NCBI RefSeq assembly: GCF_048287415.1 | Contig: NZ_JBLWEN010000001.1 | Span: forward strand, 88,790 to 152,789 | Length of the DNA: 64,000 nucleotides | DNA from: Candidatus Electronema sp. JM | Lineage (GTDB): Bacteria; Desulfobacterota; Desulfobulbia; Desulfobulbales; Desulfobulbaceae | Direction of reading: 5' to 3' | Shown here: one piece after another, positions 1,497 through 60,674 of the stretch | Layout: each line of letters starts with the position of its first letter | Position numbering within the stretch: position 1 is the first letter of the stretch | Program-made: the position numbers and the translations under genes | Notes under the pieces: model-generated | What the model saw: the letters and a program-made list of their open reading frames with translations, nothing else | What the model was told of the DNA's origin: nothing | Databases searched by the model: none

Positions 1497-1892
1497 ATGA
1501 AGATCAGGCTTTTTTCCTTCGGCTTCAAATATGGCCGCCCGGAAGCGGACACAGTCTTCGATGTCCGCTTTCTGCCAAATCCCTACTGGGTGCCGGAGCT
1601 GAAGGAGCGCAGCGGTCTCGACGCGGAGGTGGCCGCCTACGTGCTGGAAAGCCAGGCCGGACGGGAATTCCTCTCCCGCTTGGAACCGCTGCTGCTCTTC
1701 ATGCTCGACAGCCACCGGCAGGCTGGCCGCGAGGACTTCAGCTGCGCGGTGGGCTGCACCGGCGGCAGGCACCGCTCCGTGGCTGTGACCGAGCATCTGC
1801 GGCGGTTCTTAGCCGGAACGGCGGGCGATAAATTGGAGTTTTTTCACCGCGATATCGAGCGGACAGATGCACCATCAACTAATTTTCCCTAA
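1497..1892 (+). CDS. RapZ C-terminal-domain-like protein; the N-terminal P-loop half is absent
   Basis: The 131-aa ORF starts 11 nt after the ClC stop. Its sequence (KYGRPEADTVFDVRFLPNPYWVPELKERSGLD...DFSCAVGCTGGRHRSVAVTEHL) matches the C-terminal domain of RapZ/YhbJ-family proteins. No Walker A half is present. Confidence 0.5.
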   Translation: MKIRLFSFGFKYGRPEADTVFDVRFLPNPYWVPELKERSGLDAEVAAYVLESQAGREFLSRLEPLLLFMLDSHRQAGREDFSCAVGCTGGRHRSVAVTEHLRRFLAGTAGDKLEFFHRDIERTDAPSTNFP

Positions 1893-1904: not shown

Positions 1905-2960
1905 ATGACTCATGAAGAGCTGCTTCAGGCGATTCAAAGAGCTGCGGATAGCAAAGTGGCACGTTTCAATCTCATCGGCACCCAGCTCAAGGAGCTGCCG
2001 CAGGAACTCTTCGGGTTGAGCAATTTGACCGAACTGAACCTGCGCGGCAACTGCCTGACTGAGCTGCCGCCGGAAATCGGCAGGCTGACCAAGCTGAAAT
2101 CGCTCAACCTCGGCGGCTGCGGCCTGCGCTGTCTTCCTAAAGAAATAGCCAAGCTGAACGCGCTGGAGGAGCTGTATCTGCCCAACAATCTGCTGACGGA
2201 ATTGCCGCCGGAAATCGGCCAGCTCACCCACCTTACCGAACTGAATCTCAACGACAATCAGCTCGAAATGCTGCCGCCGGAGATCGGCAAGCTGACCCGC
2301 CTGCAAGAGCTGTCGCTCAACGGCAACCGCCTGAGCGGGCTGCCTGCGGAATTTTTCCAGCTGACCGAGCTATGCGAGCTGAATCTCGACAGCAACCGTT
2401 TGGCCAGCCTGCCGCCGGAAATTGGCACCTTGGACAAGCTGACTGATTTTTCTATTCTCGACAACCGATTGACCGATCTGCCCGCGACCATTGGCAAGCT
2501 GCGCAGCCTGATCCGCCTCTATCTTGGCGGCAATAAACTGCGCCAGTTGCCGTCGGAAATCACCCAACTGACGAACCTGACCGCCCTCTGTCTCGGCAAC
2601 AACGAGCTGACCGAGCTGCCGCCAGAAGTTTTCCAGCTCACCGGGCTGACTGAGCTGAATCTGCACAGCAACCATCTCAGCGAGCTGCCGCCGGAAATCG
2701 CTAAGTTGAGCGGGCTGGAATCGCTCTGCCTCTACGGCAATAAATTCAATTCCTTCTCGCCTGTGCTTTTCCGGCTGCCGGAACTGACTGAGCTGAATCT
2801 GCACAGCAATCATCTCAGCACGCTGCCGCCGGAAATCACCCAGCTCACCAATCTGGCCGAGCTGCTCGTGGACAACAACCCGCTGATCTCGCCTCCGCCG
2901 GAGATCGCCGAGCAGGGCATTGAGGCGGTGCGGGAGTATTTTGCGGAAACAGAGGCATGA
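1905..2960 (+). CDS. Leucine-rich-repeat protein. It is an LRR-only paralog of the ROCO gene at 53.4 kb and ends exactly where the Roc GTPase would begin.
   Basis: It has about 13 tandem 23-aa LRRs (LxxLxxLxLxxNxLxxLPPEIGxL). The C-terminus NPLISPPPEIAEQGIEAVREYFAETEA* parallels NPLVSPPYEIAIKGISAIREYFAEMEGESKE... of the ROCO ORF. An RBS-like GGAGAA precedes the ATG. Confidence 0.85.
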   Translation: MTHEELLQAIQRAADSKVARFNLIGTQLKELPQELFGLSNLTELNLRGNCLTELPPEIGRLTKLKSLNLGGCGLRCLPKEIAKLNALEELYLPNNLLTELPPEIGQLTHLTELNLNDNQLEMLPPEIGKLTRLQELSLNGNRLSGLPAEFFQLTELCELNLDSNRLASLPPEIGTLDKLTDFSILDNRLTDLPATIGKLRSLIRLYLGGNKLRQLPSEITQLTNLTALCLGNNELTELPPEVFQLTGLTELNLHSNHLSELPPEIAKLSGLESLCLYGNKFNSFSPVLFRLPELTELNLHSNHLSTLPPEITQLTNLAELLVDNNPLISPPPEIAEQGIEAVREYFAETEA

Positions 2961-2973
2961 ACGGATGCTACGG

Positions 2974-5124
2974 CTACGGTTTCGCTTTGGGCAGACTGAT
3001 GGCAAAGACCACGCCGCTTCTGCCGTCATCAAGGTTCCGCACGCTGGCCTTGCCGCCGTGATGCTCCAAAATGGTGCGGACGATATACAGCCCCAAGCCC
3101 ATGTGCGGCCGGTCGTCTTTCACGGGCCGATTTGTTGTCATGGAGTTGAATATCTGCTGCTGGACAGCAGGGTCAATAGTCGGCCCCTGATTGACCACCT
3201 GCATGACAATGAATTCCCCCTGCTCCTCCAGCAGCAGCTCGACCGGCGTTTCCGGCAGATGGAATGAAACCGCATTTTCAACTAATTTGTCGAGGGCCTG
3301 ATGCAGGCGGACTGGATCGCCCTCGACTGCCGCTTCCTGCTCCGGCTGCTGATAGAGAAACTTCACCTCGCTGAAAGCCAACTGCCAGCCATGCTCCAGC
3401 CACATGGAAACGGCCCGGCCCAGATCGAACTGCTCTTTGCTGTCGAGAACCAGGGCATTTTTTAAACTGGCTGCCTCGCGGATTGAGGTGAGCAGGCCTT
3501 CCAGCCGCTGCACATCGCGTTCGGCCCAGCGGATGTACTCCATGATCTGCTTGGGCGGATTTTCCTGCTGCCGCCGCTGCTCCTGCTTGAGATTTTTCAA
3601 CGAAGCGGCGACACCGGCCAGCGGCGTGCGCATTTCATGCTCCAGATTGTCGGCCATCTTCTCCCGATGCTCAATCTGCTGCTGAAGCTGCTCCAGCATG
3701 GAATCCAGAGTCCGGCCCAGATCACCGATCTCATCGTGTGACCGCCGCGCCGGACGGCTGCTGCGGAGATGGCCGTCCGAAGTGATGGCTGTCGCGGCCT
3801 GATCCCGGAGTTTTCTGATCCGGCCTGAGAGGCGGTAGGCGAAGAAGAAAAACACGCCGCCGCCGAAGAGGAAGGCCAAAACGGAAAGGGTGATCGTTTC
3901 CTCAATCATCTGGTTGCCGAGCGCGAGGATGGAGTTGGTGGTCTGCTCAACCACCACCGCAGCAATGACCTTGCCGTTTTCGTGCAGCGGGGCAATGGCG
4001 GCCATTACTTCGGTCTGGCCGTCCTCCATCAGGTATTTGGTGAGCGTGTGCCTTCCTTCCAGCCCTTCCCGGATGCCCTGCATGTCCAGCTCAGTCGGCT
4101 GCGAGGCCTGCTCTTGAATTTTCACATCAGGAGCAATGGTGAAAAAACGGTACAGAGGCCGGAGCAGTTCACCAGCTTGGCGCATGATTTCGGTAAATCG
4201 ATCTGCCTCCTCAGACAGATTTTCAGGATTGCGGAGACTGCCGACCTGCGCCCGGACCCGCTGATTTTGATCCACCACCCGGATGCGGGCATAAGGCCGG
4301 TCCAAGGAACGGAGGATATCCTCTATCGGCTTGGAGGTGCCAAGCAGCCAGCCCGGCTCCTGATTGGCAGAAATATTGGCGGTGCCGATCATGGTGCGGA
4401 CACTCCGCTCCTGCTCATCGTCCACATCAGCTACGATAAAGGCCAGCTTGCTGCCGAGCAGATCAAGGGGAATGCGCAGTTCCAGCACATAGCCTCCGCT
4501 TTTCTGCTTCCATACCCCCTGAATGCGCGGCTCGCTGACCGGAAATTTGATTGGATTGCTCGGCATGAGAAAGGGGCTGATCCAGCCTGGTTCATACGGA
4601 GAAATCAAATACCGCCGCTGGCCTTGCTCATCTTCAATCACCAACTGAAGATGGTCGGAACGATCAAGGCGGAGCGAGCTGCGGCTGCGGTAGATGACCT
4701 GGTCATCTTGCACATCAAAAAAAGCGTAGAGATATTTGTCCTGCTTGCCGGTCAGATGACGGAAGCTGAGGGTTTGCGGCAAATATCCCTCTTGCGGACT
4801 GAGCAGATGCTCTTGACCAAAGGTTTTCGCCTGCTCCAGTTCTGGCTGCCAGTCATCCACATTGCCGTCCAGCCGGATGGTGTTGGAAAGCTGAAACAGG
4901 TAGAGATCGCGGCTTTGGTTGAGTGAGCGGAACTGCTCGCGGTCAAACAGGTCGCTGCGGTTGGTGAGGGCGGCCGCGACGGCCTGCGCCGTGAAATTGA
5001 GGGTGTCTTTCTGGCTGATCATCAGGCTGCGCTTGAGCGTGCTGTTCAGCCGCATTCCCAGCAGCGGGAAGAGCAGCAGCAACAGCGAGAGCAGCGCCAG
5101 TTTAGAGCGGAGGGAAATGCGCAC
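2974..5124 (-). CDS. Sensor histidine kinase with a large periplasmic sensor between two TM segments, then HAMP-like, HisKA and HATPase_c domains
   Basis: There is an N-terminal signal/TM (LALLSLLLLLFPLL) and a second TM (LSVLAFLFGGGVFFFFAY). The H-box is EHEMRTPLAGV. The C-terminus has N/G1/G2 boxes (NAVSFH..., GLGLYIV). The gene sits immediately upstream of an OmpR-type regulator, separated by a 4-nt gap. Confidence 0.85.
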   Translation of the reverse strand: MRISLRSKLALLSLLLLLFPLLGMRLNSTLKRSLMISQKDTLNFTAQAVAAALTNRSDLFDREQFRSLNQSRDLYLFQLSNTIRLDGNVDDWQPELEQAKTFGQEHLLSPQEGYLPQTLSFRHLTGKQDKYLYAFFDVQDDQVIYRSRSSLRLDRSDHLQLVIEDEQGQRRYLISPYEPGWISPFLMPSNPIKFPVSEPRIQGVWKQKSGGYVLELRIPLDLLGSKLAFIVADVDDEQERSVRTMIGTANISANQEPGWLLGTSKPIEDILRSLDRPYARIRVVDQNQRVRAQVGSLRNPENLSEEADRFTEIMRQAGELLRPLYRFFTIAPDVKIQEQASQPTELDMQGIREGLEGRHTLTKYLMEDGQTEVMAAIAPLHENGKVIAAVVVEQTTNSILALGNQMIEETITLSVLAFLFGGGVFFFFAYRLSGRIRKLRDQAATAITSDGHLRSSRPARRSHDEIGDLGRTLDSMLEQLQQQIEHREKMADNLEHEMRTPLAGVAASLKNLKQEQRRQQENPPKQIMEYIRWAERDVQRLEGLLTSIREAASLKNALVLDSKEQFDLGRAVSMWLEHGWQLAFSEVKFLYQQPEQEAAVEGDPVRLHQALDKLVENAVSFHLPETPVELLLEEQGEFIVMQVVNQGPTIDPAVQQQIFNSMTTNRPVKDDRPHMGLGLYIVRTILEHHGGKASVRNLDDGRSGVVFAISLPKAKP

Positions 5125-17713: not shown

Positions 17714-18586
17714 TTATTGTGGTGTTGCATTCTTACTGAAATATTTTTTCATGAGAATGAACCGTTCAACAGCGCAATCATTTCTAAGTTTCATGTATTT
17801 GCCATCAAATGGAGTTGGTGCATGCAGGCAGGCGAATTTTTCATCATATACAGTAAGCAGAACACCTCTCGCCCGTGTGAAGAAATCAGCATGTTCTAAT
17901 TTTTTAAGCTTGTTGTCCCAGCCGACTTTTTTTATCCTGTCTGTTCTGCAGATAAAAAAATTTGGCACTTTATCGTAAACAGGAAGGCCTGAAATTTTGC
18001 TGCCGATTGGAGCCACAGGCTGAGAATCAGTCGGATACAAACCTATCTTGCTGTAAGCATGAATTGTAAAAAAAGGAAGGTCAATCACCTTTCCTCCTAA
18101 TATATCAATTCTTGAATCAGAATCTATCAAATAAAGACTATCCTCTATCTTTGTTTTTCTGAAAAAGACAAAATCGTCATCTAAAAAAAGCGTGTACTTT
18201 GTTGCAACGCAACCTAACGCCGCATTTCGTCCTGCGGATATGCCTGAATTATATGGCATGGTTATCTTCTCAACGCTCTTGACTTCTTCTGGATGCAGAC
18301 TGTCATCAACTACAATAATTTTAATAGATGGATAATATTTCCTTATACTCCGCAGAAGACGGACAAGTGCTTTGTAACGTTCAAATGTTTTTATAACAAT
18401 CGTTAGTTCATTCAGCAGCTCGCTGTTGCTTGGAGCGGCAGGTTTTAGTGAATCAAGAAAATTTTGCAGTGCCAATTCAAGATAAATAACAAAATCGTAA
18501 AAAAATTTAGCAACAAATTGAACCCTGCTGCCCATCAGAGCATATTTTATCTTTTTCAGATAAAAAAAAGCGATATTTTTATTCAT
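17714..18586 (-). CDS. Glycosyltransferase (GT2-like), AT-rich and likely horizontally acquired
   Basis: Motifs are LTIVIKTFERYKALVRLLRSIRKYYPSIKIIVVDDS and DDDFVF (a DxD-like motif). The gene is visibly AT-rich against a GC-rich background. Confidence 0.6.
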   Translation of the reverse strand: MNKNIAFFYLKKIKYALMGSRVQFVAKFFYDFVIYLELALQNFLDSLKPAAPSNSELLNELTIVIKTFERYKALVRLLRSIRKYYPSIKIIVVDDSLHPEEVKSVEKITMPYNSGISAGRNAALGCVATKYTLFLDDDFVFFRKTKIEDSLYLIDSDSRIDILGGKVIDLPFFTIHAYSKIGLYPTDSQPVAPIGSKISGLPVYDKVPNFFICRTDRIKKVGWDNKLKKLEHADFFTRARGVLLTVYDEKFACLHAPTPFDGKYMKLRNDCAVERFILMKKYFSKNATPQ

Positions 18587-19523
18587 GCGACTTGCTTTCC
18601 TTCATTAAATTTTGTTGTTTCTGCTCCTGTAAGCTGGCCAGTTCCTCGCCGGACAGGCCAGTGCTGGCAGCAATAACCTCCAGCGCGACACCGTGCGCCA
18701 GCAGGCTGCGGGCAACAGCGAGCTTCTCCTCACGTTTTCCCTGTTCCATGCCTTGTGCCATGCCCTTCGCCAAGCCATCCTTCTCCGCCTTGGCCAGCGC
18801 TCCCTGCTGGAGCATGATGAAGTCCCGGCGTTTGAACTGCATCTCCAGCTCCTCCTCGTTCAGGGCGGCAGTGTTGGCCAAATCAAAGGCATCAAGCAGC
18901 GGCGGCTCAGTGAAGGTCTTGGGGATGAAGTCAAGGCTGCCAGCGTGCTTGATGAAGTATATCCATTTATCGGTGACGGAATCCAGCTCAGTCTCGCTTT
19001 TGCTGAATTTTGGCAGCTCGATGAAGATCAGCTCAATGTCGCCATTGTACTGAACAAGCTGCTCTTTTTCTCTGAGATCCCAATACGAAATAGCCTTGCC
19101 GAACTCAGGGAACATCGCAAAGTCGGTGATGGTCAGGGCTATGACCGGCTCCAAGCTGGCGTAGTGCTGCGAGCGTTTGAGCTGAGATGAGTAAAGTTTG
19201 GCGGCGTTGTACAACACCCGCTTCTCAAAGCCCTCGACATTCAGCACCTGCATCTCGACGATCACCCTGCGCTGATTGGACAGCACCGCCTTCACGTCCA
19301 CATAGCTGTCTTTCATGCCTTTTAATAGCGGCACCTGATACGGATCAACTATGGTCAGGTCGGTAATTTGCGCATCTTCAAAGTCAATCACGGCATTGAG
19401 GAAGTCAATCAGGATGCCTTTTGACTGCTCGCTGCCGAAGTTTGGCAATCTCTTCTTCAGATAATCCCGTGCTGGCAGCGATGACCGCCGATGCAACGCC
19501 ATGCGCCAGCAGATTGCGGGCAA
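18579..19523 (-). CDS. Rpn-family recombination-promoting nuclease / putative transposase (PD-(D/E)XK, transposase_31-like), copy 1
   Basis: The N-terminus is ILIDFLNAVIDFEDAQITDLTIVDPYQ...VDVKAV...VIVEMQV. The C-terminal helix LLAHGVALEVIAASTGLSGEELASL is typical of Rpn/YhgA-like proteins. The exact start is uncertain because it overlaps copy 2 in another frame. Confidence 0.7.
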   Translation of the reverse strand: MPAICWRMALHRRSSLPARDYLKKRLPNFGSEQSKGILIDFLNAVIDFEDAQITDLTIVDPYQVPLLKGMKDSYVDVKAVLSNQRRVIVEMQVLNVEGFEKRVLYNAAKLYSSQLKRSQHYASLEPVIALTITDFAMFPEFGKAISYWDLREKEQLVQYNGDIELIFIELPKFSKSETELDSVTDKWIYFIKHAGSLDFIPKTFTEPPLLDAFDLANTAALNEEELEMQFKRRDFIMLQQGALAKAEKDGLAKGMAQGMEQGKREEKLAVARSLLAHGVALEVIAASTGLSGEELASLQEQKQQNLMKESKSHE

Positions 19524-20286
19524 TAGCGATTTTTTCTTCGTATTTCCCTTCGGTGCGTCCCTCTTCCTTTGAAGACCAGAGCATGGACTGCTGATACGAC
19601 ATATTTAGCATATATTCATCATAGGCTTTGCGCTGCGGCTCATCTAAATTCATCATCCGCAGCCGTGCCGAGGCTTCTTGGATATGCTTGGCCCTGAAAT
19701 CAGGGCGCACTTCGCTGTGCTTGAGCATGTAAATCCATTCATCCAATCCAGACTGCACTTTATCGGGGAAATCCTCAACGCGAATAAGGTAATGCTCAGG
19801 AAATATTTTGCGCACATCGCTGATGCCGAACAGCTCCTGCTGTCTGTTGCTCAGGCTGAGTATATCTTTGCTGTGAACGCCGACAAAATTGGTGGAGCCG
19901 TAATAGAGATAATCTGTGCCGATGCCAAGACTGAAATAGGTGATGCTGACCGAGATGATTTTTTTGATTTCCCGGTACGGCTGGCCTTTTTCTAAATATT
20001 CGGTCATCAGTTTGGCGACACCGTAGGCGATGCGGTGGAAGAAATCGTATTCCGATTTCACCTGCACTTCAATCAGCAGCAACTCGCCTTTGCTGTTTTC
20101 AACCAGCAAATCAACGCGGTTGAATTTATCGAGGCTGTCTTCCTGATTGCTTTCGCTCTCCAAGAGATTGACGACGGTGACATCTTCATCAAGCACGGCA
20201 GTGAGGAAGCCTTCCAGAACGGAAAAATTGGCTTTGTCGCGCAGCAGCTTTTTGATAGCCCAGTCAAAGCGGATGAGTTTTTCCAT
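19405..20286 (-). CDS. Rpn-family recombination-promoting nuclease / putative transposase, copy 2 (tandem paralog)
   Basis: Motifs are NFSVLEGFLTAVL...LLIEVQV and the C-terminal LLAHGVASAVIAASTGLSEEEIAKL. It is a paralog of the adjacent gene. Confidence 0.7.
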   Translation of the reverse strand: MEKLIRFDWAIKKLLRDKANFSVLEGFLTAVLDEDVTVVNLLESESNQEDSLDKFNRVDLLVENSKGELLLIEVQVKSEYDFFHRIAYGVAKLMTEYLEKGQPYREIKKIISVSITYFSLGIGTDYLYYGSTNFVGVHSKDILSLSNRQQELFGISDVRKIFPEHYLIRVEDFPDKVQSGLDEWIYMLKHSEVRPDFRAKHIQEASARLRMMNLDEPQRKAYDEYMLNMSYQQSMLWSSKEEGRTEGKYEEKIAIARNLLAHGVASAVIAASTGLSEEEIAKLRQRAVKRHPD

Positions 20287-22336: not shown

Positions 22337-25300
22337 TCACACATCCAGCTCAGAAACCTCCAGCGCGTGGTTCTGGATGAACTCGCGCCGTGGCTCGACC
22401 TTGTCGCCCATCAAGGTGACGAACAAATCATCCGCAGCCTCGGCATCCTCAATCCTGACGCGCAGCAGGGTGCGGTTGGCCGGGTTCATGGTCGTCTCCC
22501 AAAGCTGCTCCGGGTTCATCTCGCCCAAACCTTTATACCGCTGCAAATGACTGCCCCGGAAGGTCTCCTCGCGGACAACACGAATCAGCTCGCGCCAATT
22601 TTTAGCCGGAATTTCCTTCTCCTGACCAGAGGCCGCATTCTTGCAGAGGGTGAAACTGCTGCCGATGTGCTCCCTGATTTCAGGATAGAGATCAAGACCG
22701 AGCCGGTATTCGGGAATCAGCGGAATATGCGGCCCGATGACCGCACGGGTGTGGGCCAAACCTTGAAAGGCCGCCTCCGCCTCAAAGCAACTGGGCCGGG
22801 ACGCGCAAACGCGAATGCCGCTGGTGACGGCATTGATGCTGGCGAGCTTATCCAGCAGCCCGTGCAGGAACGCCTCCTCCTTGAATTGATCCGCAGAATG
22901 GACATCGTTTTCAAGCAGGAAGAGGGTGAGCTGCTCCTGAATGTTCATCCGTTCCAAGAAGGTGCTGATGCGCTCAAACAGGGTGAGCTTCTTCAGCAAA
23001 CTGACCAGTTCCTGCCCGGCCAGCACGCTGCCGTTCTCCAAGCGGACTTGCACAAACTGGGCCGCCTGATCGTAAAGGTGGTTGTTGAGCGCGTCCTCAT
23101 CCAGGAAATATTGCTCCTTCTTGCCCCGGCCCAAGCGATAAAGCGGCGGCTGGCCGATATAAACATAGCCTTGCTCGACCAGCGGCAGCATCTGGCGATA
23201 GAAGAAGGTGAGCAGCAAGGTGCGGATGTGCGCGCCGTCCACGTCCGCGTCGGTCATGATGATGATCTTGTGGTAGCGCAGCTTGCTCGCATCAAACTCC
23301 TCCCGCCCGATGCCGGTGCCCATTGCGGCGATCAATTGCTTGATCTCCTCCGAGTCGAGAATCTTGTCGAAACGTGCCTTCTCCACATTCATGATCTTGC
23401 CGCGCAACGGCAGGATGGCTTGGATGGAGCGGTCGCGGCCTTGCTTGGCACTGTTGTGAACAAACACGCCGCTGGCTAAAGCAAAATTGTGCGTGTTCGG
23501 CACTTCGATGTCGTACACATCAATACGCTCGGTCAGCTTCTCCACTGAGACAACGCGGTGGTTGTAATTGCTCACCGCTTCCAGAGCGCGTTCGGTGTTG
23601 TTATCAAAATACCGCTGGCAGAAGGTGTCAAAGCGCAGCAATGATTTGTCCTTTGTGGCAATGCGGTGCTGGCGGTAGCCTTCAAGATCAACTGCGCCGG
23701 GCCGCAGCTCGTGCCGCTTGAGCACGGCCAAAGTTTTCCGGTAATACGTCTGCTGCAACGCAGCTTGGCGGCGGGCGCGGAACTCTGCTGTCCATTGCTG
23801 CTGAGTTTTCTGACTGCGCCACGCCAGCAGCTCGGCATCGCTCCATTGCTCTTTCGCCTTTCGTGACTGCTCCGCACGGGCTTCCGGGTGCTCTTCAAAA
23901 TAGGAACGCACCCGTTCAGCTTGGGCCAAGCGGTTTTCCTCATCCTGCCAGTAGATTTTCTGCGCCTCATTCAACAAAGCGGCATTTTGCTGGCGATATT
24001 CTGCGTTGCTGCGGTAGAACTCCCGCCATTTGTCGGCCATGAAGGCTTTGTACGCCGCATCGTCCCATTGCACTTGAGCGCGTTCAGAGAGCTGCTGCCG
24101 CAACTGCATCATGCGTTGGCTCATCTTGGTGCGGAATTCAGGACTCTGCCGGACAGCCCGACTCTTTTCGATCACATCGGGCCGACGCAGGGTTCGGTCA
24201 GCGTGCTGCCGATGCAGGCGCAAATGCTCTTCCGCCGGAAGCCGCCGGATGTTGGAGGGATTGTTGTTGCGCTTATTGAAATCAAGGTGATGCCGATGTT
24301 CGCCATCTTCAGCCTGATAACCACCTGCCTTGCAGTTATATTTATCGGCAAGGACATGTGTGAATTTCCAGCGGCTGGCATTTGGTTCCCAAACCATTTC
24401 ATAGCCGTCAATGGTGATGCCCGGTTCATTCATATCCGAGAGCTTGCGATACAGCGGCATCAAAGAAGTGCCGACAGTCAGCCGTTCTGCCGGGCAATAG
24501 CTGCCATCGCGAAGCAGGAAGCGGTGATCCGGGGTGCAGACAATCTGCTCGCCATTGTCCAGCGTCACCTGCACAACTTCCTGCTGCCGCTTAGTCAGGC
24601 GCGGATGCAAAATCCGTTCGAGGCCAATCTTGCCGTCTGCTTGAATGGTGTAGCAGAAATGCTCTTTGCCCTGCTCCTGCTCGGCGATCAGCTCCAAAAA
24701 GCTGAGGGCGCGGCCATCGGCCAAAGCCACTTTGGTCTCGCCAGAAAAGCAGCCGCCCGCTGAATCGCCCTCCACGAGAAACAGCTCGCGCTCTGCCGGA
24801 TTCTTCGACTGGCATTCAGCCAGCTTGCCTGCCATCAGCAGAGAAATGCCGTCCTTCTTGCGTGACAAATCACGCGCCTTCCGCGCCGCTTCTCTGGCCC
24901 GCGCCGCCTCGACCGCCTTGCTGAGTATCTGCCGCGCCACCTGCGGGTTGCGCTCCAAGTAATCGCCAAGCTGCTCGGTGCAGATGGAAGCGACGATGCC
25001 CTTCACCTCGGAGTTGCCCAGCTTGGTCTTGGTCTGACCCTCGAACTGCGGATTCGGCACCCGCACTGAAATGATTGCAGTCAGGCCCTCGCGCACATCA
25101 TCGCCCTCCATTTTCTCCTTCATGTGCTTGGGCACAATGTCATCAGTGGCGTATTTGTTGATGCACTTGGTCAGCGCGGCGCGGAAACCCGCCACATGCG
25201 AGCCGCCTTCGCGGGTGTTGATGTTGTTGACAAAGGAAGCCAGCCGCTCAGTGTAGCTGTCCACATATTGCAGACAGACCTCGACCTGCACCTGCTCCTG

Positions 25301-26110
25301 CTCGCCTTCCAGAAAGATCGGCTGCGGATGAATCGGGGTGCGGTTGCGGTTCAGGTGCTCGACATATTCAACCACGCCGCCTTCATAATGAAACACATCC
25401 TCAGCCCCGCTTTGCTCATCCTTCAGGGTGATGTGAACGCCCCGATTGAGAAAAGCCAGCTCGCGCAGCCGGTTGAGGACGATCTCGTATTTGAACACAA
25501 CCGTCTGGGTGAATATCTCCGGGTCTGGCTTGAAAGTAATCGTGGTGCCGGTGTGCTCGCTGGTGCCAACCACCTCCAGCTCGCTGGTCTTTGCGCCGTA
25601 AGAGAAGGTCTGCCGGTAGAGCTTGCCGTTGCGCCGCACCTCAGCGGTGACATGGGTGGAGAGCGCATTGACCACCGACACGCCCACGCCGTGCAATCCG
25701 CCGGAAACTTTATAGGACGAATGATCGAACTTGCCGCCCGCGTGCAAGGTGGTCAGCACCAGCTCAAGAGCGGTCATGTTTTCCGTCGGATGCTTGTCCA
25801 CCGGAATGCCGCGTCCGTTGTCTTCGACCGAGCAGGAACCGTCCTCCAGCAGGATCACCTTAATCTGGTTGCAGTATCCGGCCAGAGCCTCGTCAATCGA
25901 GTTGTCCACCACCTCGTAAATCAGATGATGCAGCCCTTCTTCCGCCGTGTTGCCGATATACATGGACGGACGCTTGCGCACCGCCTCAAGCCCGTCAAGA
26001 ACCTTGATCTGATCCGCCCCGTAGGACGTGTTCTGCTGTTCGCTCACTTGCTTGCCTTCTCTGAAGAATTTATACGGAAAACGGCATGGTTGCGATGCGG
26101 CGCGCCGCAT
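22337..26110 (-). CDS. gyrB: DNA gyrase subunit B carrying an in-frame intein of about 433 aa. The real start is probably near 26035-26050 at [17 protein letters not shown].
   Basis: GHKL ATPase motifs are present ([38 protein letters not shown]). A TOPRIM domain with EGDSAGG is interrupted by [10 protein letters not shown]...GVFVHN. The sequence then resumes [27 protein letters not shown] and continues to the C-terminus ...[11 protein letters not shown]. Confidence 0.95.
23453..24751 (-). mobile_element. Intein inserted in GyrB TOPRIM, between EGDSAGG and SAKQGRD, with an HNH-type endonuclease module
   Basis: The first intein residue is Cys (block [14 protein letters not shown]). The intein ends VHN followed by Ser(+1). 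The internal HNH-like motif is [31 protein letters not shown]. The extein-only length is about 800 aa, normal for GyrB. Confidence 0.8.
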
Positions 26111-53208: not shown

Positions 53209-53293
53209 TTGCACTATAGTGGAAGCAGCCATTGCACTACAGTGGAAACCTCGGTTGCACCATAGTGCAAACATCGGTTGCACTATAGTGCAA
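53209..53293. promoter_or_regulatory. Array of four 16-bp palindromic sites (TTGCAC-NATA-GTGCAA) at exact 23-bp spacing, about 120 bp upstream of the ROCO start
   Basis: Units start at 53209, 53232, 53255 and 53278. Units 3 and 4 are perfect palindromes. Units 1 and 2 have the half-site variant GTGGAA. Confidence 0.8.
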
Positions 53294-53412
53294 CCGCAAG
53301 CCACAGCCTGCTGGCCGCTTGGCTGCGAGGAAGCTGCAAGTATCCGAGCCATGCTCGAAGGCATTGCAGGGGCACCCTTAGCACAACCACACACCCACGG
53401 AGGAACGAGGCG

Positions 53413-55434
53413 ATGAGCAAAGAAGAAGCCTTGCAGCTAATTAAAGAGGCTGCGGAGACAGGGGCAACGTGGCTTAATCTCTTTAATCAAGGATTGAGTG
53501 AAATACCACCTGAGGTGTTTGCGCTTAAGCAGCTCACCTATCTTGGTCTCACTCATAATCGTCTCGCCTTTCTACCGCCAGAACTGTTTGAGATGAAGCA
53601 GCTCACCCAGCTTGAACTCAGCGACAATTGCCTTATCTCATTACCGCCTGAGGTGTTTACACTCAAACAATTAACCTTGCTTAACCTCATTCGCAACCAC
53701 CTTGTCACCCTACCGCCAGAGATTAATCAACTACCCAAGTTAAAAGATATTTGGTCTTTCGATAACCCCCTCGTCTCTCCTCCTTACGAAATAGCTATCA
53801 AAGGCATCTCAGCCATACGCGAATACTTCGCTGAAATGGAAGGCGAGAGCAAGGAGCTGGCCGAGGTCAAGATCATCCTTGTGGGCGAAGGCGCATCGGG
53901 CAAGACCTCATTAGTCAGGCGGCTGCGCGGGGAGCAGTTCGACCCGCACGAGCCAATGACGCACGGCATCAGCATCAACAAATGGCGGCCCGCAAGCGCA
54001 GGCCAGCTGCCCTGCTGCAATGTCTGGGACTTCGGCGGCCAAGAGATCATGCACGCCACGCACCAGTTTTTCCTTTCCCGCCGCAGCCTGTACGTCCTTG
54101 TCCTCGACAACCGGCGCGACGAGCGGCCCGAATACTGGCTGCGCTACATCGAAACCTTCGGCGGCGATTCGCCGGTCTTAGTGGTGCTCAACAAGCAGGA
54201 CATCAATCCCGGCTTTGATCTCAACCGGCCTTTTCTGCACGAGAAATACCCGTTCATCAAGGGCTTTTGGCCGCTTTCCTGCCACAGCGGACAGGGCATG
54301 GCGGCATTCACGCAAGCCTTGCACGAGGAGTTAGACAAGGTGCCCTTGAGCAAGAACCGCTGACCCGCAACCTGGTTCCGGGCAAAGGAAAAGCTGGAGC
54401 AGCTGCACGAGCCGCGCATCAACTACGAACGCTTCGAGCAAATCTGCCTTGAAGCCGGGGTGAAGGGCGCGACCACGCAGCAGGTCTTGGTGGATTTCCT
54501 CAACGATCTGGGCACGGTCATTCACTTTGATCAATTTGAGCTGAACGATCATCACGTCCTTAATCCGCAATGGGTGACAGAGGCGGTGTACAAGATCATC
54601 AACGCGCCGTCGGTGGCACATGCCAAGGGCCTGCTGCACGTGGATGCGCTGGCGGACATCTTAGCAAAGAAGAAGGACAGCGAGCATCGTTATTATCCCG
54701 CTGATCACCATTACATCATCGAGCTGATGAAGAAGTTCGAGCTGTGCTATCAAGTGGGTGAGAGCGAGGTGCTGATACCGCAGCTTTTGGCCGTGCCTGA
54801 GCCTTCCTTCACCTTTTATTACAGCAATGCCCTGCGTTTTGTTCTCCATTATGAGGACTTCCTGCCGCCGTCTGTCATGCCCCGCTTTATTGTCAATCGG
54901 CATAAAGAGATTCAAGGCGAACTGCGCTGGCGCAGCGGCGTTGTCCTGAAGAATGCGCAGCTTGATGCCAGCGCGGTGGTGCGGGCGGATGACGAGGCCC
55001 GCCGCATTCATATCGCTGTGACCGGCAAGGAGCGCAAAATCTTCCTCGCCCTGATTTGGCTCACTCTGCGGGAAATCAATGCGGGCTTTGAAGGCTTGAA
55101 GGTCAGCGAGCGCGTGCCCATGCCGGATGAGCCGGAACGCAGCGTGGATTACGAGACACTTCTCAGCTATGCGGAACAGGGCTTGGAAAAGATTATCCCC
55201 GAAGGCACGAAAAAGGCATATAGTGTGAAAGAGCTGCTGGAACGGGTGCATTTCGCCAATGAAAGCGAGGGCAGGCAGATGCTGGCTTTGGCTGAGGGTG
55301 AACGGAAAGGCGGAGCAGTGAACAAAACAGGCGCCGCATTGAACACCATGTTCAAGCTGGAGCCTTCAGTTTTTGGCGTGGGAATCAACCTCAATGCGAT
55401 GTTTGACGCTCTGCTGAAATGGCAGAGGAAGTAA
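53413..55434 (+). pseudogene. ROCO-type signalling GTPase (LRR - Roc/Ras-like GTPase - COR) interrupted by a single in-frame TGA at 54361..54363
   Basis: There are LRRs at 53413 onwards. The Roc P-loop is ILVGEGASGKTSL, with DFGGQE and NKQD motifs. After the stop, the same frame continues (PATWFRAKEKLEQLHEPRINYERFEQICLEAG...) into a COR-like approximately 320 aa. The tool ORFs 53278..54363 and 54460..55434 are in the same frame. Confidence 0.8.
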
Positions 55435-55545
55435 GCCCGCAACCGCTTGGGCCTGAGAATCCTAAGTGCTTGGGATTTTGGCCGAGGCGTTGCTTTGAAT
55501 AACTCGCGCAGCTTATTGGCTGCTCTGAAGATAAAGAAATCTGCA

Positions 55546-55785
55546 ATGAGATGCGTATGCTGCGGAGGGCCGCTCAAAAGCGGCACAGTGACATTCAGCT
55601 ATGAGGATGAGGAAGCATACATCTTTGTTGAGCATGTTCCGGCTGATGTATGCAGTCATTGCGGCGAGAAAGTGTATTCCCCGGCTGTTGCGGACATGCT
55701 GCTGGATATCGCTCAAAGGAAGAGCGAGCCAGTCAAGATGCTCCATATCCCTGTTTATGATTTTGCTCAAACGAAGAGAACATGA
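55546..55785 (+). CDS. YgiT-type zinc-finger protein (MqsA N-terminal-domain-like, no HTH)
   Basis: It has two CxxC pairs (CVCCGG...CSHCGE) spaced as in the YgiT/MqsA zinc ribbon. Its stop overlaps the next start (ATGA). Confidence 0.55.
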   Translation: MRCVCCGGPLKSGTVTFSYEDEEAYIFVEHVPADVCSHCGEKVYSPAVADMLLDIAQRKSEPVKMLHIPVYDFAQTKRT

Positions 55786-57314
55786 CTCCACCTGTCGGCC
55801 TGGCCAAGCACGAGCAGCTGCAAGCGCTTGCAGCTCAATACGGCTGCCCTGTCCTGGAATACAGCGAGAAGGTCAGCGTGCCGTTCCTCATCCTCATTCA
55901 GCTCAATGCGGAGCAGCTGCGGCAGGAAGGCTGGCTGCCGCTACACGTCACGGAAGAGAAGGTGAAAATCCTCACGCACCGCGCCCCGGACGAGGTCGCC
56001 GCCGCTGTCCGCCAGACGCTGGGCGAGGTGGAGCTTGATTTTGTCCTCACTGTGCCGCATGACTTTATCCGGGTCTTTGAGCACAGCTGCGATCTCAACC
56101 CCAGATTCCCCATGCCCGCAGGCCGCACGCCGCTGGCCAGAGTGCGCACTTACTTCGCAGGCCGCCGCTCGCTTTTCGCGCACTACCGCACCTTGATGGC
56201 CAAAAGCCGCACCGATCTGGCCACCGTCCGCACCGCGCTGTCCTTCATGACCATCGCCCTGCTCGGCGTGCGGGTCTTCGGCCTGGGCACGCTGGCAGTG
56301 CTGGAGCTGCCGCTCTTTCTCCTCGGCGCATGGGTCTGCGTTGACAGCATCGTCAGCTACCTGCCTGCCCGCCGGGTGAAAAGCCGTCTGCCCGCCTGCT
56401 CCGGCACCACGCCGACCAACGGCACCACAGTCTTGGCGGCCTCGAACGCGGAGGATTTCCCGCTCTTCCGCCGCCTGCCTGAGACACCGGGCGCAGCCGC
56501 CTTGCGGGCAGGCTGGACCAAGCTCACCCCGCTGATGCGCCGCCGCTTTCTCGCCAGCGACCGCACCGACATGGCCGAGGAGCGGACAACGCTGGCCTGC
56601 CTCCGCACCAAAATGGCGAAGGCGCGCACCGGCCTGGCTTTTGTCCGCACCGGCCTGGCCTTTTTCTCCCTCGGCTTCGGCCTGATGCGGGCCTTTCCCG
56701 AAGTCATTTATTGGCACATCTTAGATGTGAGTTTGATGGCCGCCGGAATCCTCATGGCACTGGAAGGCTTCTTCTGGTATAAAAAAGGTCGGCCTGCGGG
56801 CGAGGAAGGGCAGGCTTCGGTGGAGAAAGCGAACAAGGCGGGCACGATCTGGGATTTCTTCTTCCCGCATGTCGCGGCCTGCCCCAGCCCCAATCCCCTG
56901 CAAACCCCGCCAGTGCGCCGCTCGCACGCGCCGGGCCTCTGGGCGACCACAGGTCTAGCTTTGGAGCGCACCGTCTTAGCTGACCGCCGCAATGTCATGG
57001 CGCGGCTACGGACGGTCATGGCCCGCTCGCGCACGGGCATGGCCTTCATCCGCACCGGCCTGAGCATCCTGCTGATCGGTGTCACCTTCTTGGTCTCCTT
57101 CCCGGATGCGGGCCTGCTCTGGCAGCTGCTCGACTGGTGCCTGATCCTCGGCGGCTCCGTCTTAGTTGCGGACGGCTTTTACTGGACGGTGCCTGCGGAG
57201 CGGAAACGGACGGAGTTCCCCTACTGCTTCGCGGATTTGGAAATAGCTCTGGCGGATTACGGCATTCCCTCCCGCCATTGGCGGAAGACGGTGTTTTATC
57301 GTGCAAGCAAGTAA
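55782..57314 (+). CDS. T2SS-E N-terminal (GspE_N/MshEN-like) domain fused to three DUF202 (YidH-like) membrane repeats
   Basis: The N-terminal approximately 110 aa resemble the GspE N-domain (AAQYGCPVLEYSEKVSVPFLILIQLNAEQLRQEGWLPLHVTEEKVKILTHRAPDEVAAAVRQTLG). Three blocks follow, each [RT.LA..RT.[LM]A..RT.LA..RTGL + hydrophobic helix]. Confidence 0.65.
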   Translation: MTPPVGLAKHEQLQALAAQYGCPVLEYSEKVSVPFLILIQLNAEQLRQEGWLPLHVTEEKVKILTHRAPDEVAAAVRQTLGEVELDFVLTVPHDFIRVFEHSCDLNPRFPMPAGRTPLARVRTYFAGRRSLFAHYRTLMAKSRTDLATVRTALSFMTIALLGVRVFGLGTLAVLELPLFLLGAWVCVDSIVSYLPARRVKSRLPACSGTTPTNGTTVLAASNAEDFPLFRRLPETPGAAALRAGWTKLTPLMRRRFLASDRTDMAEERTTLACLRTKMAKARTGLAFVRTGLAFFSLGFGLMRAFPEVIYWHILDVSLMAAGILMALEGFFWYKKGRPAGEEGQASVEKANKAGTIWDFFFPHVAACPSPNPLQTPPVRRSHAPGLWATTGLALERTVLADRRNVMARLRTVMARSRTGMAFIRTGLSILLIGVTFLVSFPDAGLLWQLLDWCLILGGSVLVADGFYWTVPAERKRTEFPYCFADLEIALADYGIPSRHWRKTVFYRASK

Positions 57315-58539
57315 CGAGACGCTCCTGACGGCCTTGGCCCGGAAGGGCGTTCTGCCGGCAGAGACGCTGGCGGAGATTGAGCAGGCCGCCACGCTGCGCG
57401 GGCTGGCGCCTGCGACGCTGCTGGTCTATGAGTACAATGTGCCGCGCGTCACGCTGCTGGAGGCCTTGGCTGAGATTCACGCCTGCCAGCCGGTGGAGTA
57501 TGATGAGCGGCTGCCCATCCCGCCGGACTTCCTGCCCAAGCTCTCCGGTCCGGCCTTGCTGAAGGAAGGCTGGTTCCCCATCTTCTTGGAGGAGGACGGC
57601 ACTGTGACGGTCGCCGCCTCCAACCCTGCCGCGCCGGGCCTGTGCGCTTCGGTGCGGCAGACGCTCGGATGCAGCAATGTGGTCTGCATGGTCACCCTGC
57701 CGGAGGACGTGCAGTGGTTCATTCAGGATTATCTGCACGCGCCGCCCGGCCTGCTTATCGGCACTGAGCGCACTGGCCTGGCCTATTGGCGCAACACCAT
57801 GGCCCAGTGGCGGACGCTGCTCGCCTGCTGCCGCACCGACATGGCCAAGGCGCGCACAGCACTGGCCTTTGGCCGCTTTGGCCTCTCGCTGATCACGGTC
57901 GCCATGACCTTGCTGCGCCTGACTCCGCCGCGCCTGCCCAAGCCTGCGGCCTTCCTCCTCCTGGCTTTGGGCCTGCTCTGCAACGGACTGGGCGTGGCGG
58001 TGTATCTGCGGATCCGCCGCTCGCAGCTACGCCCGCCCGGCAGCCAGACGATCATGGAAGTGACTGCGGCCACCATCTCGTTCTTGGAGCAGTACCATTT
58101 CCCGGAAGAGCTGAAGGGCAGCCTGCCGCCGCCGCAGACCGGCGCATCCATGCTCGCCCGCCTGGGAGAGCTGCTCGCCGACTACTCGACCATCCTTTTC
58201 CCGGCTCCGCCCAGCCGCGAGCGCACGCATCTGGCCCGTGAGCGCAACGTGCTGGCGGCCCAGCGCACGGTGGCTGCTTGTTACCGCACCATCTATGCCC
58301 GCGCCCGCACTGGGCTGGCCTTCACCCGCACTGGCGTGAGCTTCTTCAGCTTTGGCGTGGGCCTGATCCTCTATTTCGGCCTCGGCCTGAACACCATCTT
58401 TGATGCGCTGCTGATTGCCGCAGGCCTGCTGATGATCACCGACGGCCTGCTCTGGTATCTGCCGGTGCGCAAAGAGCAGGCCGAGCTGCCGCGCTCGCGC
58501 AGCGGTGCCCTGGCTGGCTGGGAGGATGACGACGAATGA
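57301..58539 (+). CDS. GspE_N/MshEN-like domain fused to two DUF202 membrane repeats (paralog of the upstream gene)
   Basis: The N-terminal region (LLTALARKGVLPAETLAEIEQAATLRGLAPATLLVYEYNVPRVTLLEALAEIH...WFPIFLEEDGTVTVAASNP) is followed by ERTGLAYWRNTMAQWRTLLACCRTDMAKARTALAF and RERTHLARERNVLAAQRTVAACYRTIYARARTGLAFTRTG. It has a GTG start that overlaps the upstream gene by 14 nt. Its stop overlaps the kinase ATG. Confidence 0.6.
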   Translation: MQASNETLLTALARKGVLPAETLAEIEQAATLRGLAPATLLVYEYNVPRVTLLEALAEIHACQPVEYDERLPIPPDFLPKLSGPALLKEGWFPIFLEEDGTVTVAASNPAAPGLCASVRQTLGCSNVVCMVTLPEDVQWFIQDYLHAPPGLLIGTERTGLAYWRNTMAQWRTLLACCRTDMAKARTALAFGRFGLSLITVAMTLLRLTPPRLPKPAAFLLLALGLLCNGLGVAVYLRIRRSQLRPPGSQTIMEVTAATISFLEQYHFPEELKGSLPPPQTGASMLARLGELLADYSTILFPAPPSRERTHLARERNVLAAQRTVAACYRTIYARARTGLAFTRTGVSFFSFGVGLILYFGLGLNTIFDALLIAAGLLMITDGLLWYLPVRKEQAELPRSRSGALAGWEDDDE

Positions 58540-60307: not shown

Positions 60308-60481
60308 GTCTGTGGCTGCTGTCGGCGATGGAGTTCTTCCTGGCAGCTTATGCTCTGGCAGAGGACACCATTATGCTTGACAAGAGGACAACGTTATCCT
60401 CTTGCGGAGCATAACATTATGCTCTTTGGCTGCATAGTGCTATGCAGCGGCAGCAGCAAATATGGTCGTGGCAATGGTGTA

Positions 60482-60503
60482 GGGGCGAAAAATTTTTCGC
60501 CCC
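60482..60503. repeat. Copy 2 of the GGGGCGAAAAATTTTTCGCCCC palindrome
   Basis: It is identical to copy 1 and has similar flanks (gtgta...tgcagc). Confidence 0.85.
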
Positions 60504-60542
60504 TGCAGCATTGCGGAAAACATGCAAAGGAGGAACGAGGCG

Positions 60543-60674
60543 ATGAACAAAGAAGAAGCCTTGCGGCGGATTAAACACGTGGAGGAGACAGGAGCAACGA
60601 GGCTTGATCTGAGCTTTCAAAGATTGACTGAACTGCCGCCTGAACTCTTTCAAATAAAAAATGAACCAACTTGA
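60543..60674 (+). pseudogene. 43-codon stub of a ROCO/LRR-family N-terminus with a conserved RBS region
   Basis: MNKEEALRRIKHVEETGATRLDLSFQRLTELPPELFQ... parallels MSKEEALQLIKEAAETGATWLNLFNQGLSEIPPEVFA... at 53413. The upstream GGAGGAACGAGGCGATGA is shared with the ROCO gene. Confidence 0.6.

What the first reader, a model, noticed from the sequence alone, without database searches (positions are those of the whole stretch)
53413..55434. ROCO (LRR-Roc-COR) GTPase interrupted by one in-frame TGA, plus two truncated paralogs in the same window
The Roc GTPase ORF ends at TGA 54361..54363. The identical reading frame then continues without a shift through a COR-like domain of about 320 aa. This means either a recent nonsense mutation, a sequencing error, or programmed UGA readthrough or recoding. 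Before the TGA the sequence is ...KVPLSKNR; the in-frame continuation ...PATWF... has no ATG, and the tool's downstream ORF restarts on a GTG at 54460. A C-to-T change in a CGA Arg codon is the simplest origin.

Two other copies of the family N-terminus are present. One is an LRR-only gene that stops exactly at the LRR/Roc junction (1905..2960). The other is a 43-codon stub with the same RBS (60543..60674). Together they suggest active turnover or recombination of this family.
Basis: seen in the sequence. Interest (0 to 1): 0.5.

Follow-up and report, generated by a model that had tools for sequence, protein, structure and literature searches.

The report
ROCO GTPase gene with premature stop
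One copy of a large family of LRR-Roc-COR ("ROCO") GTPase genes in a cable bacterium carries a single G-to-A change that turns a conserved tryptophan codon (TGG) into a TGA stop between the GTPase and COR domains; this is an ordinary, very recent gene-inactivating mutation (or a base-call error), not programmed recoding.

Summary
ATG 53413 opens a 673-codon frame with LRR, Roc, COR-A and COR-B domains. It has one internal stop, TGA 54361-54363, exactly at the Roc/COR-A boundary.

The proposed origin (CGA Arg) is wrong. The syntenic ortholog (L001, TauE–Alph_Pro_TM–ROCO, 84% aa identity, intact 673 aa) has TGG there. Of 166 homologous copies, 143 have TGG, the rest code Phe/Leu/Val, and none has TGA, Cys or Arg.

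The 356 codons after the stop show no decay: dN/dS is 0.07-0.23, and 111 of 111 family-invariant residues are kept. TGA is a normal stop elsewhere in the window, and no SECIS-like fold follows it. The best reading is a very recent nonsense mutation, or a single-base error. The stop signal UGA-C is a weak one, and misreading by tRNA-Trp would restore the wild-type residue; this was not tested.

The two "truncated paralogs" differ:
- The 43-codon stub (60543) is a proven remnant of a ~2 kb deletion; a relative has an intact ROCO there.
- The LRR-only gene (1905) is conserved with the same stop in a 94%-identical relative, under purifying selection (dN/dS 0.10). It is not decaying.

In passing: 23-nt-period palindrome arrays lie upstream of ROCO genes.

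The parts
53209..53300 (+). Array of four 23-nt units (TTGCACTATAGTG[G/C]AA plus a 7-nt spacer). It ends 113 nt upstream of the ROCO start codon and is a probable regulatory element or leader of the gene (inferred).
   Evidence: the repeat finder; TRF (one of only two period-23 arrays in the 64 kb); conserved in ortholog L001; analogous arrays with other palindromes lie upstream of ROCO paralogs.
53399..53403 (+). Shine-Dalgarno GGAGG, 9 nt before ATG 53413.
   Evidence: Sequence. The stretch GGAGGAACGAGGCGATG is shared with the stub and with L001.
53413..54360 (+). First 316 codons of the ROCO gene: the N-terminal cap, about 4 leucine-rich repeats (about 53467-53781) and the Roc GTPase domain (about 53869-54360). 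G1 GEGASGKT, G3 DFGGQ and G4 NKQD are intact.
   Evidence: PDB match to MbRoco2 RocCOR-deltaC 4wnr, E 3.6e-121.
54361..54363 (+). In-frame TGA replacing the conserved Trp317 codon (TGG in the ortholog). The next base is C (UGA-C).
54364..55434 (+). 356 further codons in the same frame: COR-A (54364-54789), COR-B (54826-55242), a C-terminal tail and TAA 55432-55434. No start codon lies before GTG 54460.
   Evidence: Pfam; dN/dS 0.07-0.23 against L001; 111 of 111 invariant family positions retained.
1905..2960 (+). Stand-alone LRR protein (351 aa, about 13 repeats) with the ROCO-type N-cap and C-cap. It ends 8 residues before the Roc beta-1 position and has no Roc/COR remnant after it. Its stop lies 13 nt from the stop of a convergent histidine-kinase gene.
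   Evidence: It has the same length and stop in L163 (94% nt identity) with dN/dS 0.097.
60543..60674 (+). 43-codon stub: the RBS and first about 36 codons of a ROCO paralog fused out of frame to the start of the PEP-synthase-like gene (ATG 60661). It is the remnant of a deletion of about 1.98 kb, with the junction at 60651-60656 (CAAATA).
   Evidence: L086 has RR - intact 698-aa ROCO - PPDK-like gene. The window aligns to L086 1095-1224, then jumps to 3206 onward.
60348..60425 (+). Second 23-nt-period palindrome array (3.4 units), 118 nt upstream of the stub's ATG. The ROCO upstream region is retained after the deletion.
   Evidence: A similar array is present at L086 778-880.

Best explanation
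The window comes from a cable bacterium of the Candidatus Electronema/Electrothrix group. These genomes carry many paralogous LRR-Roc-COR (ROCO) GTPase genes. In the copy at 53413-55434, one G->A transition changed the conserved Trp317 codon TGG to TGA, exactly at the Roc/COR-A junction.

Shown: the change is a single base relative to the positional ortholog, and everything else in the gene is intact.

Inferred: translation now ends after LRR-Roc (316 aa). This product lacks the COR domain, which in characterised ROCO proteins mediates dimerisation and supports GTPase activity. The copy is therefore a newly inactivated gene (an incipient pseudogene), in line with the loss and reshuffling seen in other members of the family. 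Because the downstream 356 codons show no decay, the event is very recent relative to the roughly 6-9% nucleotide divergence from the nearest relatives.
For: - Frame continuity and domain content.
- Organism and family: the best hits are Candidatus Electronema/Electrothrix COR-domain proteins, with several per genome.
- Positional ortholog L001 (TauE, Alph_Pro_TM, ROCO; intact 673 aa) has TGG where the window has TGA, and the neighbouring codons are identical. L010 is also syntenic and intact.
- Trp is invariant in the 15 closest homologs. Across 162 loci, 143 of 166 copies have TGG and none has TGA.
- No decay downstream: dN/dS is 0.07 for COR-A and 0.23 for COR-B, against 0.16 for Roc, and 111 of 111 invariant positions are kept.
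- Interrupted ROCO copies occur elsewhere: 5 of about 175 have in-frame stops and 1 has a frameshift. One of these is another TGG->TGA (L153).
- The same window holds a ROCO deletion remnant.
- The other long genes in the window are intact: GyrA, GyrB with an intein, SbcC and a 1416-aa protein. Differences from relatives show no asymmetric substitution pattern and no GGCC-linked bias. This argues against an error-prone assembly.
- COR is needed for dimerisation, and isolated Roc has low GTPase activity: PMC6337361.
Against: - No reads and no second assembly of the same strain could be examined. The source genome is absent from all collections searched, so a single miscalled base cannot be excluded.
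- The complete lack of decay downstream fits a sequencing error, or continued function through readthrough, equally well.
- Loss of function of the truncated product is inferred from other ROCO proteins and was not tested.
Confidence: 0.62

Rival explanations
1. Sequencing or assembly error: the true sequence is TGG and the gene is an intact 673-aa ROCO.
For: The lesion is a single base, and the rest of the gene is flawless. Every other homolog has a sense codon here. The wild-type context CTGGCCC contains GGCC, a common methylation motif that can cause systematic miscalls in some long-read data (own knowledge, not tested).
Against: No other broken long gene was found in 64 kb. Substitutions against relatives are symmetric (G>A 144 vs A>G 137). 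GGCC loss is not significantly biased (27 vs 18), and GGCC is not depleted (527 observed, 423 expected). Consensus substitution errors are rare in polished assemblies (own knowledge).
Confidence: 0.22
2. Leaky stop: the mutation is real, but UGA-C is read through at a low rate by tRNA-Trp (near-cognate, anticodon CCA). This inserts the ancestral Trp and yields some wild-type full-length ROCO. The gene would be turned down rather than off, and the COR part would stay under selection.
For: The stop is UGA followed by C. Termination at UGA with +4C is documented as inefficient in bacteria, and tRNA-Trp misreads UGA in E. coli and B. subtilis (PMC5289835). The ancestral residue is Trp. The downstream part is perfectly preserved. 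A second ROCO homolog (L153) has TGA-C at another conserved Trp.
Against: There is no conserved TGA in any ortholog and no stimulatory RNA structure (z-scores +0.6 to +1.2). TGG->TGA is simply the most likely one-step transition to a stop. Background readthrough is usually only a small fraction of translation (own knowledge). No data exist on tRNA-Trp or RF2 of this organism.
Confidence: 0.1
3. Programmed recoding: either selenocysteine insertion at UGA, or a genome-wide code in which UGA means Trp or Gly.
For: The order Desulfobulbales includes selenoprotein users (own knowledge). UGA=Trp codes exist in some bacteria (PMC13092985).
Against: - Homologs have Trp/Phe/Leu/Val at this position, never Cys or Sec.
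- The 60-120 nt after the TGA fold no better than shuffles, and the same small hairpin is present in the TGG ortholog.
- There are no Rfam hits.
- TGA terminates ClC (1484), DUF4390 (9192), Alph_Pro_TM (53027) and the PEP-synthase-like gene (63259), each at a full-length profile end.
- Cable bacteria are not listed among reassigned lineages in PMC13092985.
Confidence: 0.01
4. Functional split gene: LRR-Roc and COR are made as two polypeptides that assemble, with COR translated by reinitiation after the TGA.
For: The break falls exactly at a domain boundary. The COR part is intact.
Against: There is no ATG/GTG/TTG in frame for 32 codons after the stop. The first candidate, GTG 54460, has no clear Shine-Dalgarno sequence and would remove the first 32 residues of COR-A, including invariant W321, F322, K325, L328 and E329. 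No homolog among 166 copies is split here. The Roc-COR tandem on one chain is the defining trait of the family (PMC6337361).
Confidence: 0.05

Closest known systems
Prokaryotic group-1 ROCO proteins (LRR-Roc-COR): Methanosarcina barkeri Roco2 (PDB 4wnr) and Chlorobium tepidum Roco (PDB 6hlu, 3dpu, 8r4b)
   Same: The domain order LRR-Roc-COR-A-COR-B is the same. Sequence similarity is very strong (E 3.6e-121 to MbRoco2 RocCOR-deltaC, 3.9e-120 to CtRoco). The G1, G3 and G4 motifs are present, and MbRoco2 has Trp at the position equivalent to residue 317.
   Different: The reading frame is broken by TGA between Roc and COR. The LRR region is short (about 4 repeats). The gene is one of many paralogs in cable bacteria. 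The biological role of bacterial ROCOs is unknown.
Young bacterial pseudogenes created by a single nonsense mutation
   Same: There is one disabling substitution (a TGG->TGA transition), the rest is intact, the orthologs are intact, and the gene family shows other losses (a deletion stub in the same window; about 3% interrupted copies in other assemblies).
   Different: It cannot be proven that the product is non-functional or that the base call is right.
Near-cognate UGA readthrough by tRNA-Trp at weak UGA-C stop signals (E. coli, B. subtilis; summarised in PMC5289835)
   Same: The stop codon and +4 base are the same, and the amino acid that would be inserted equals the ancestral residue.
   Different: There is no evidence of conservation, of a stimulatory element or of readthrough in this organism. 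This is a resemblance of context only.

Membership tests
ROCO (Roc-COR) GTPase family | Ras-like Roc G domain with nucleotide-binding motifs | tested here: met
   Pfam Roc PF08477, E 1.2e-28. GEGASGKT, DFGGQ and NKQD are read in the translation. Aligns to MbRoco2 and CtRoco structures.
ROCO (Roc-COR) GTPase family | COR domain directly C-terminal of Roc (the tandem that defines the family; PMC6337361) | tested here: met
   At DNA level, COR-A (E 3e-38) begins at the codon after Roc, and COR-B (E 6e-31) follows in the same frame.
ROCO (Roc-COR) GTPase family | Roc and COR encoded on one uninterrupted polypeptide | tested here: not met
   TGA at codon 317 lies between the two domains. All 166 homologous copies compared have a sense codon there. 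The locus is therefore a ROCO gene by descent but, as written, does not encode a complete ROCO protein.
ROCO (Roc-COR) GTPase family | COR-mediated dimerisation and dimer-dependent GTP hydrolysis | not testable with these tools
   This needs biochemistry. It is known for CtRoco and MbRoco2 (PMC6337361).
Bacterial selenoprotein gene | UGA aligned with Cys (or Sec) in homologs | tested here: not met
   Homologs have Trp (143 copies), Phe (15), Leu (7) or Val (1), never Cys.
Bacterial selenoprotein gene | SECIS stem-loop immediately 3' of the UGA | tested here: not met
   The folds of 54361-54420 and 54340-54460 are not more stable than shuffles (z +1.16 and +0.63). The small hairpin is also present in the TGG ortholog. 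No Rfam family matches.
UGA-reassigned genetic code (table 4 or 25) | UGA used as a sense codon throughout genes and not as a terminator | tested here: not met
   TGA ends four genes at the ends of their Pfam profiles. The scan of same-frame neighbouring long open stretches found no other conserved gene split by TGA.
Pseudogene (recent) | Disabling lesion relative to intact orthologs at the same locus | tested here: met
   L001 and L010 carry intact ROCO genes between the same neighbours.
Pseudogene (recent) | Relaxed selection or loss of expression after the lesion | tested here: inconclusive
   No relaxation is detectable. This is expected if the lesion is very young, but also if it is an error or is read through. 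No expression data are available.

The most novel reading that the evidence does not exclude
The TGA is real and is tolerated because UGA-C at a Trp codon is decoded at a useful rate by tRNA-Trp, which regenerates the wild-type ROCO protein. TGG->TGA changes in this expanded gene family (a second case is in L153) would then act as reversible, leaky 'dimmer' alleles that diversify ROCO dosage among cells or filaments of a cable bacterium, rather than as dead genes.
Probability: 0.07. Interest if true: 0.55.

Novelty: new member of a known kind. Interest (0 to 1): 0.2.

Why it matters
On its own this matters little. It is a textbook single-base nonsense lesion in one paralog, useful mainly as an annotation flag: pseudogene or possible base-call error, with ancestral codon TGG and not CGA.

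The wider context has modest value. Cable bacteria hold a large ROCO family that is not discussed in the searched literature. In this one window the family shows a nonsense hit, a ~2 kb deletion remnant, a selected LRR-only derivative and mosaic, recombination-like identity. ROCO genes there are also preceded by unusual 23-nt-period palindrome arrays. These features could guide work on what bacterial homologs of the Parkinson's-disease protein LRRK2 do and how they are regulated.

Tried and rejected
1. CGA->TGA origin: rejected, because the ortholog and 143 of 166 homologs have TGG.
2. Selenocysteine or SECIS: rejected.
3. Alternative genetic code: rejected, because TGA is a genuine stop in four genes.
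4. Finding the source genome or a same-strain second assembly, to test TGA against TGG:
   - Exact-protein look-ups for three window proteins found nothing.
   - The genome-contig scan gave at best 77% identity.
   - A 23-mer pattern scan of metagenome contigs found nothing.
   - A protein-based metagenome scan gave at best 65%.
   - The closest DNA found is 91-94% identical (L001, L163).
5. Homolog search with the LRR-only protein: dominated by generic LRR hits and uninformative. The question was solved instead through the neighbouring histidine kinase.
6. Anti-phage defence role: no PADLOC match for the ROCO, the LRR-only protein or neighbours.
7. Systematic motif-linked sequencing error: no signal.
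8. Sigma-70 promoter consensus upstream of the gene: none found.
9. Literature on ROCO proteins, pseudogenes or repeat arrays in cable bacteria: nothing in the library.
10. The dN/dS for the histidine kinase was misaligned by an indel and is not used.

Full report
OBSERVATION

The ORF list and raw sequence show ORF 53278..54363 and ORF 54460..55434 in the same frame. Translating from the homolog-supported start ATG 53413 to 55434 gives 674 codons. There is exactly one internal stop, at codon 317 (TGA 54361-54363), and a terminal TAA.

Pfam places LRR_8 and Roc (E 1e-28) before the stop. COR-A (E 3e-38) starts at profile position 1 with the very first residue after the stop, and COR-B follows (E 6e-31). 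The break therefore sits exactly at the Roc/COR-A junction, and the downstream frame is unmistakably coding. No canonical start codon lies in frame between the TGA and GTG 54460.

ORGANISM AND FAMILY

A search with the joined protein returned thousands of LRR-Roc-COR proteins. The best hits come from Candidatus Electronema, Candidatus Electrothrix and Desulfobulbaceae MAGs, with several paralogs per genome. The histidine kinase at 2974-5124 is likewise closest to Electronema proteins. The window is therefore from a cable bacterium.

The protein is very similar to solved prokaryotic ROCO structures: Methanosarcina barkeri Roco2 (4wnr, E 3.6e-121) and Chlorobium tepidum Roco (6hlu, E 3.9e-120).

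WHAT THE TGA REPLACED

In an alignment with the 15 closest full-length homologs, the position is an invariant Trp. The best hit, P0001, is 84% identical and exactly 673 aa. Its contig (L001) carries TauE, Alph_Pro_TM and then the ROCO gene, the same neighbours as in the window, so it is the positional ortholog.

Codon by codon, L001 reads ...AAC CGC TGG CCC GCA... where the window reads ...AAC CGC TGA CCC GCA.... L010 (Candidatus Electronema sp. KV) is syntenic over an even longer stretch and is also intact.

Across 162 fetched loci from genomes and metagenomes, 166 homologous copies align over this position. Of these, 143 have TGG and the rest have Phe, Leu or Val codons. None has TGA, Cys or Arg.

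IS THE DOWNSTREAM HALF DECAYING?

It is not. Against L001:
- dN/dS is 0.16 for Roc (before the stop).
- dN/dS is 0.07 for COR-A and 0.23 for COR-B (after the stop).

All 111 columns after the stop that are invariant among the 15 homologs are retained in the window, compared with 114 of 116 before it. The lesion is therefore either much younger than the 6-9% nucleotide divergence from the nearest relatives, or not real, or not inactivating.

RECODING AND ALTERNATIVE CODE

- TGA terminates the ClC channel gene, the DUF4390 gene, the Alph_Pro_TM gene and the PEP-synthase-like gene at the ends of their profiles.
- The scan of same-frame adjacent long open stretches found no other conserved gene split by TGA.
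- The RNA after the TGA folds no better than shuffled sequence, and its small hairpin is equally present in the TGG ortholog.
- Rfam finds nothing in the window.
- A selenocysteine site would be expected to align with Cys, not Trp.

These readings are rejected.

REAL MUTATION OR ERROR?

This cannot be settled without reads. The source genome is absent from every collection reachable here.

Indirect evidence leans towards a good assembly. The long genes in the window (GyrA, an intein-containing GyrB, SbcC, and 1416-aa and 866-aa PEP-utilising proteins) are intact. Differences from relatives are symmetric, and there is no bias at GGCC, the motif overlapping the wild-type site.

Interrupted ROCO copies also occur in other assemblies: 5 copies with stops and 1 with a frameshift among about 175. 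One of them, L153, is another TGG->TGA at a different conserved Trp.

MECHANISM AND CONSEQUENCE

Shown: a single base change produces a stop between Roc and COR.

Inferred from established ROCO biochemistry (PMC6337361): the Roc-COR tandem defines the family, the C-terminal half of COR mediates dimerisation, and isolated Roc has much lower GTPase activity. The 316-aa LRR-Roc product should therefore be a crippled GTPase, and this paralog is an incipient pseudogene.

A COR-only product is unlikely. The first candidate start, GTG 54460, lacks a clear Shine-Dalgarno sequence and would remove 32 residues containing several invariant positions.

One nuance is worth stating. The stop signal is UGA-C. 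Termination at UGA with +4C is documented as inefficient in bacteria, and tRNA-Trp is the known near-cognate misreader of UGA (PMC5289835). Any readthrough product would therefore carry the ancestral Trp and be wild type. This is compatible with the data but unsupported by conservation or by any stimulatory element.

THE TWO 'TRUNCATED PARALOGS'

(a) The stub at 60543-60674. It shares the RBS and its first about 36 codons with the family. Metagenome contig L086 has histidine kinase, response regulator, an intact 698-aa ROCO and then the PEP-synthase-like gene, the same neighbours as in the window. The window aligns to L086 1095-1224 and then jumps to L086 3206 onward. About 1.98 kb of ROCO body has been deleted, leaving 6 nt of filler. 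The stub is a proven deletion remnant. Its retained promoter region and RBS may now serve the downstream gene (inference).

(b) The LRR-only gene at 1905-2960. It has the family's N- and C-terminal LRR caps and ends 8 residues before the Roc beta-1 position. There is no Roc or COR remnant anywhere else in the window. An independent metagenome contig, L163, is 94.2% identical and colinear over 7.7 kb. It carries the same 351-aa gene with the same stop, and dN/dS is 0.097 (55.5 synonymous against 18.5 non-synonymous differences). It is therefore a stable, selected stand-alone LRR protein, probably derived from a ROCO gene, not a decaying fragment. In Candidatus Electronema aureum and Electronema sp. 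PJ, the kinase is instead followed by YkuD, SSB and DnaJ genes. The LRR gene therefore lies at a synteny breakpoint.

RECOMBINATION

Identity to L001 along the gene is mosaic:
- 50-79% in the LRR part;
- 91-99% through Roc and COR;
- 77-82% in codons about 550-650;
- 97% at the 3' end.

The core is also 93-97% identical to a ROCO at a different genomic location (L002/L003).

SEEN IN PASSING: PALINDROME ARRAYS UPSTREAM OF ROCO GENES

The only two period-23 tandem arrays in the 64 kb lie at 53209-53300 and 60348-60425. They end 113 and 118 nt upstream of the ROCO start and the stub start.

Arrays of the same period (22-23 nt, sometimes with a 45-46-nt superperiod) occur upstream of ROCO paralogs in many cable-bacterium loci, built from different 16-18-bp palindromes. 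In total, 17 of 29 such arrays in 1.15 Mb lie within 400 nt upstream of a ROCO start. Some precede other genes.

Their function is unknown. The near-zero palindrome centres suggest DNA operator sites rather than RNA hairpins. I found no description of them in the literature library.

VERDICT

This is an ordinary single-base nonsense lesion (TGG->TGA) in one member of a dynamic ROCO gene family. It is either a very recent pseudogenisation or, less likely, a base-call error. It is not recoding. Interest is low. The family context and the upstream arrays are the more interesting leads.

Noticed in passing
window 53209-53300 and 60348-60425; loci L001, L002-L005, L009, L010, L013-L015, L066, L086-L088, L090, L091: Tandem arrays with a 22-23-nt period (2-7 units, each a 16-18-bp palindrome plus a short spacer) lie 50-310 nt upstream of ROCO start codons. 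The palindrome sequence differs between paralogs but the period is constant. They are the only period-23 arrays in the window. In the fetched loci, 17 of 29 such arrays lie within 400 nt upstream of a ROCO start; the others precede small TA-like ORFs, an RND pump and other genes. Function unknown; no Rfam hit and no literature hit.
   Followed up: partly
window 53312-53326: Directly after the array there is a sigma-54-like -24/-12 element, TGGCCG-N5-CTGC (GG and GC at the canonical spacing). It is conserved in L001. No sigma-70 consensus was found upstream of the ROCO gene. Judged by eye only.
   Followed up: no
window 1497-1892: A 131-aa ORF corresponds only to the C-terminal half of RapZ (NCBIfam positions 160-278 of 278; Pfam PapZ_C 1-121 of 121). 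It lies 10 nt after a ClC-channel gene. It is conserved at 130 aa in L163 with dN/dS 0.14, so it looks like a selected stand-alone RapZ C-domain protein lacking the N-terminal kinase-like domain.
   Followed up: partly
window 22337-26110 (- strand): The gyrB gene encodes 1257 aa with an intein splicing domain (residues about 473-886) inserted before the Toprim domain.
   Followed up: no
L153 (JACCEE012395933.1), within 1289-2533: A second ROCO homolog has a single in-frame TGA followed by C at a different conserved Trp (the EYWLRYIE motif, W242 in the window protein's numbering). This is either an independent TGG->TGA pseudogenisation or a hint that this class of change is tolerated.
   Followed up: partly
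window 53413-55434 compared with L001 and L002/L003: Identity along the ROCO gene is mosaic: the LRR part and codons about 550-650 are far more diverged than the Roc-COR core. The core is 93-97% identical to a ROCO at a non-syntenic location. This suggests gene conversion among paralogs.
   Followed up: partly
window 55447-55785; L001 4641-5254; L005 3467-3703; L066 3446-3679: Small toxin-antitoxin-like genes flank ROCO genes and vary between relatives. The window has a YgiT/MqsA-type zinc-finger ORF downstream of the ROCO, where L001 has PhdYeFM and PIN genes. The same MqsA-like gene lies just upstream of other ROCO paralogs in L005 and L066.
   Followed up: no
window 18579-20286 (- strand): Two adjacent, partly overlapping ORFs of the PD-(D/E)XK nuclease-family transposase type (PF12784).
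   Followed up: no
window 55782-58539: Two tandem paralogous genes combine an MshEN-like N-terminal domain with DUF202 membrane domains. They contain internal 21-nt repeats (TRF rows at 56614, 58304 and 58407) and are syntenic in L010.
   Followed up: no
window 60471-60514: A 22-nt-arm, 91% complementary inverted repeat (GCAATGGTGTAGGGGCGAAAAA / TTTTTCGCCCCTGCAGCATTGC) lies between the array and the RBS of the ROCO stub. A similar GGGGCAAAAGATTTTTTGCCCC element is present upstream of the ROCO in L010.
   Followed up: no
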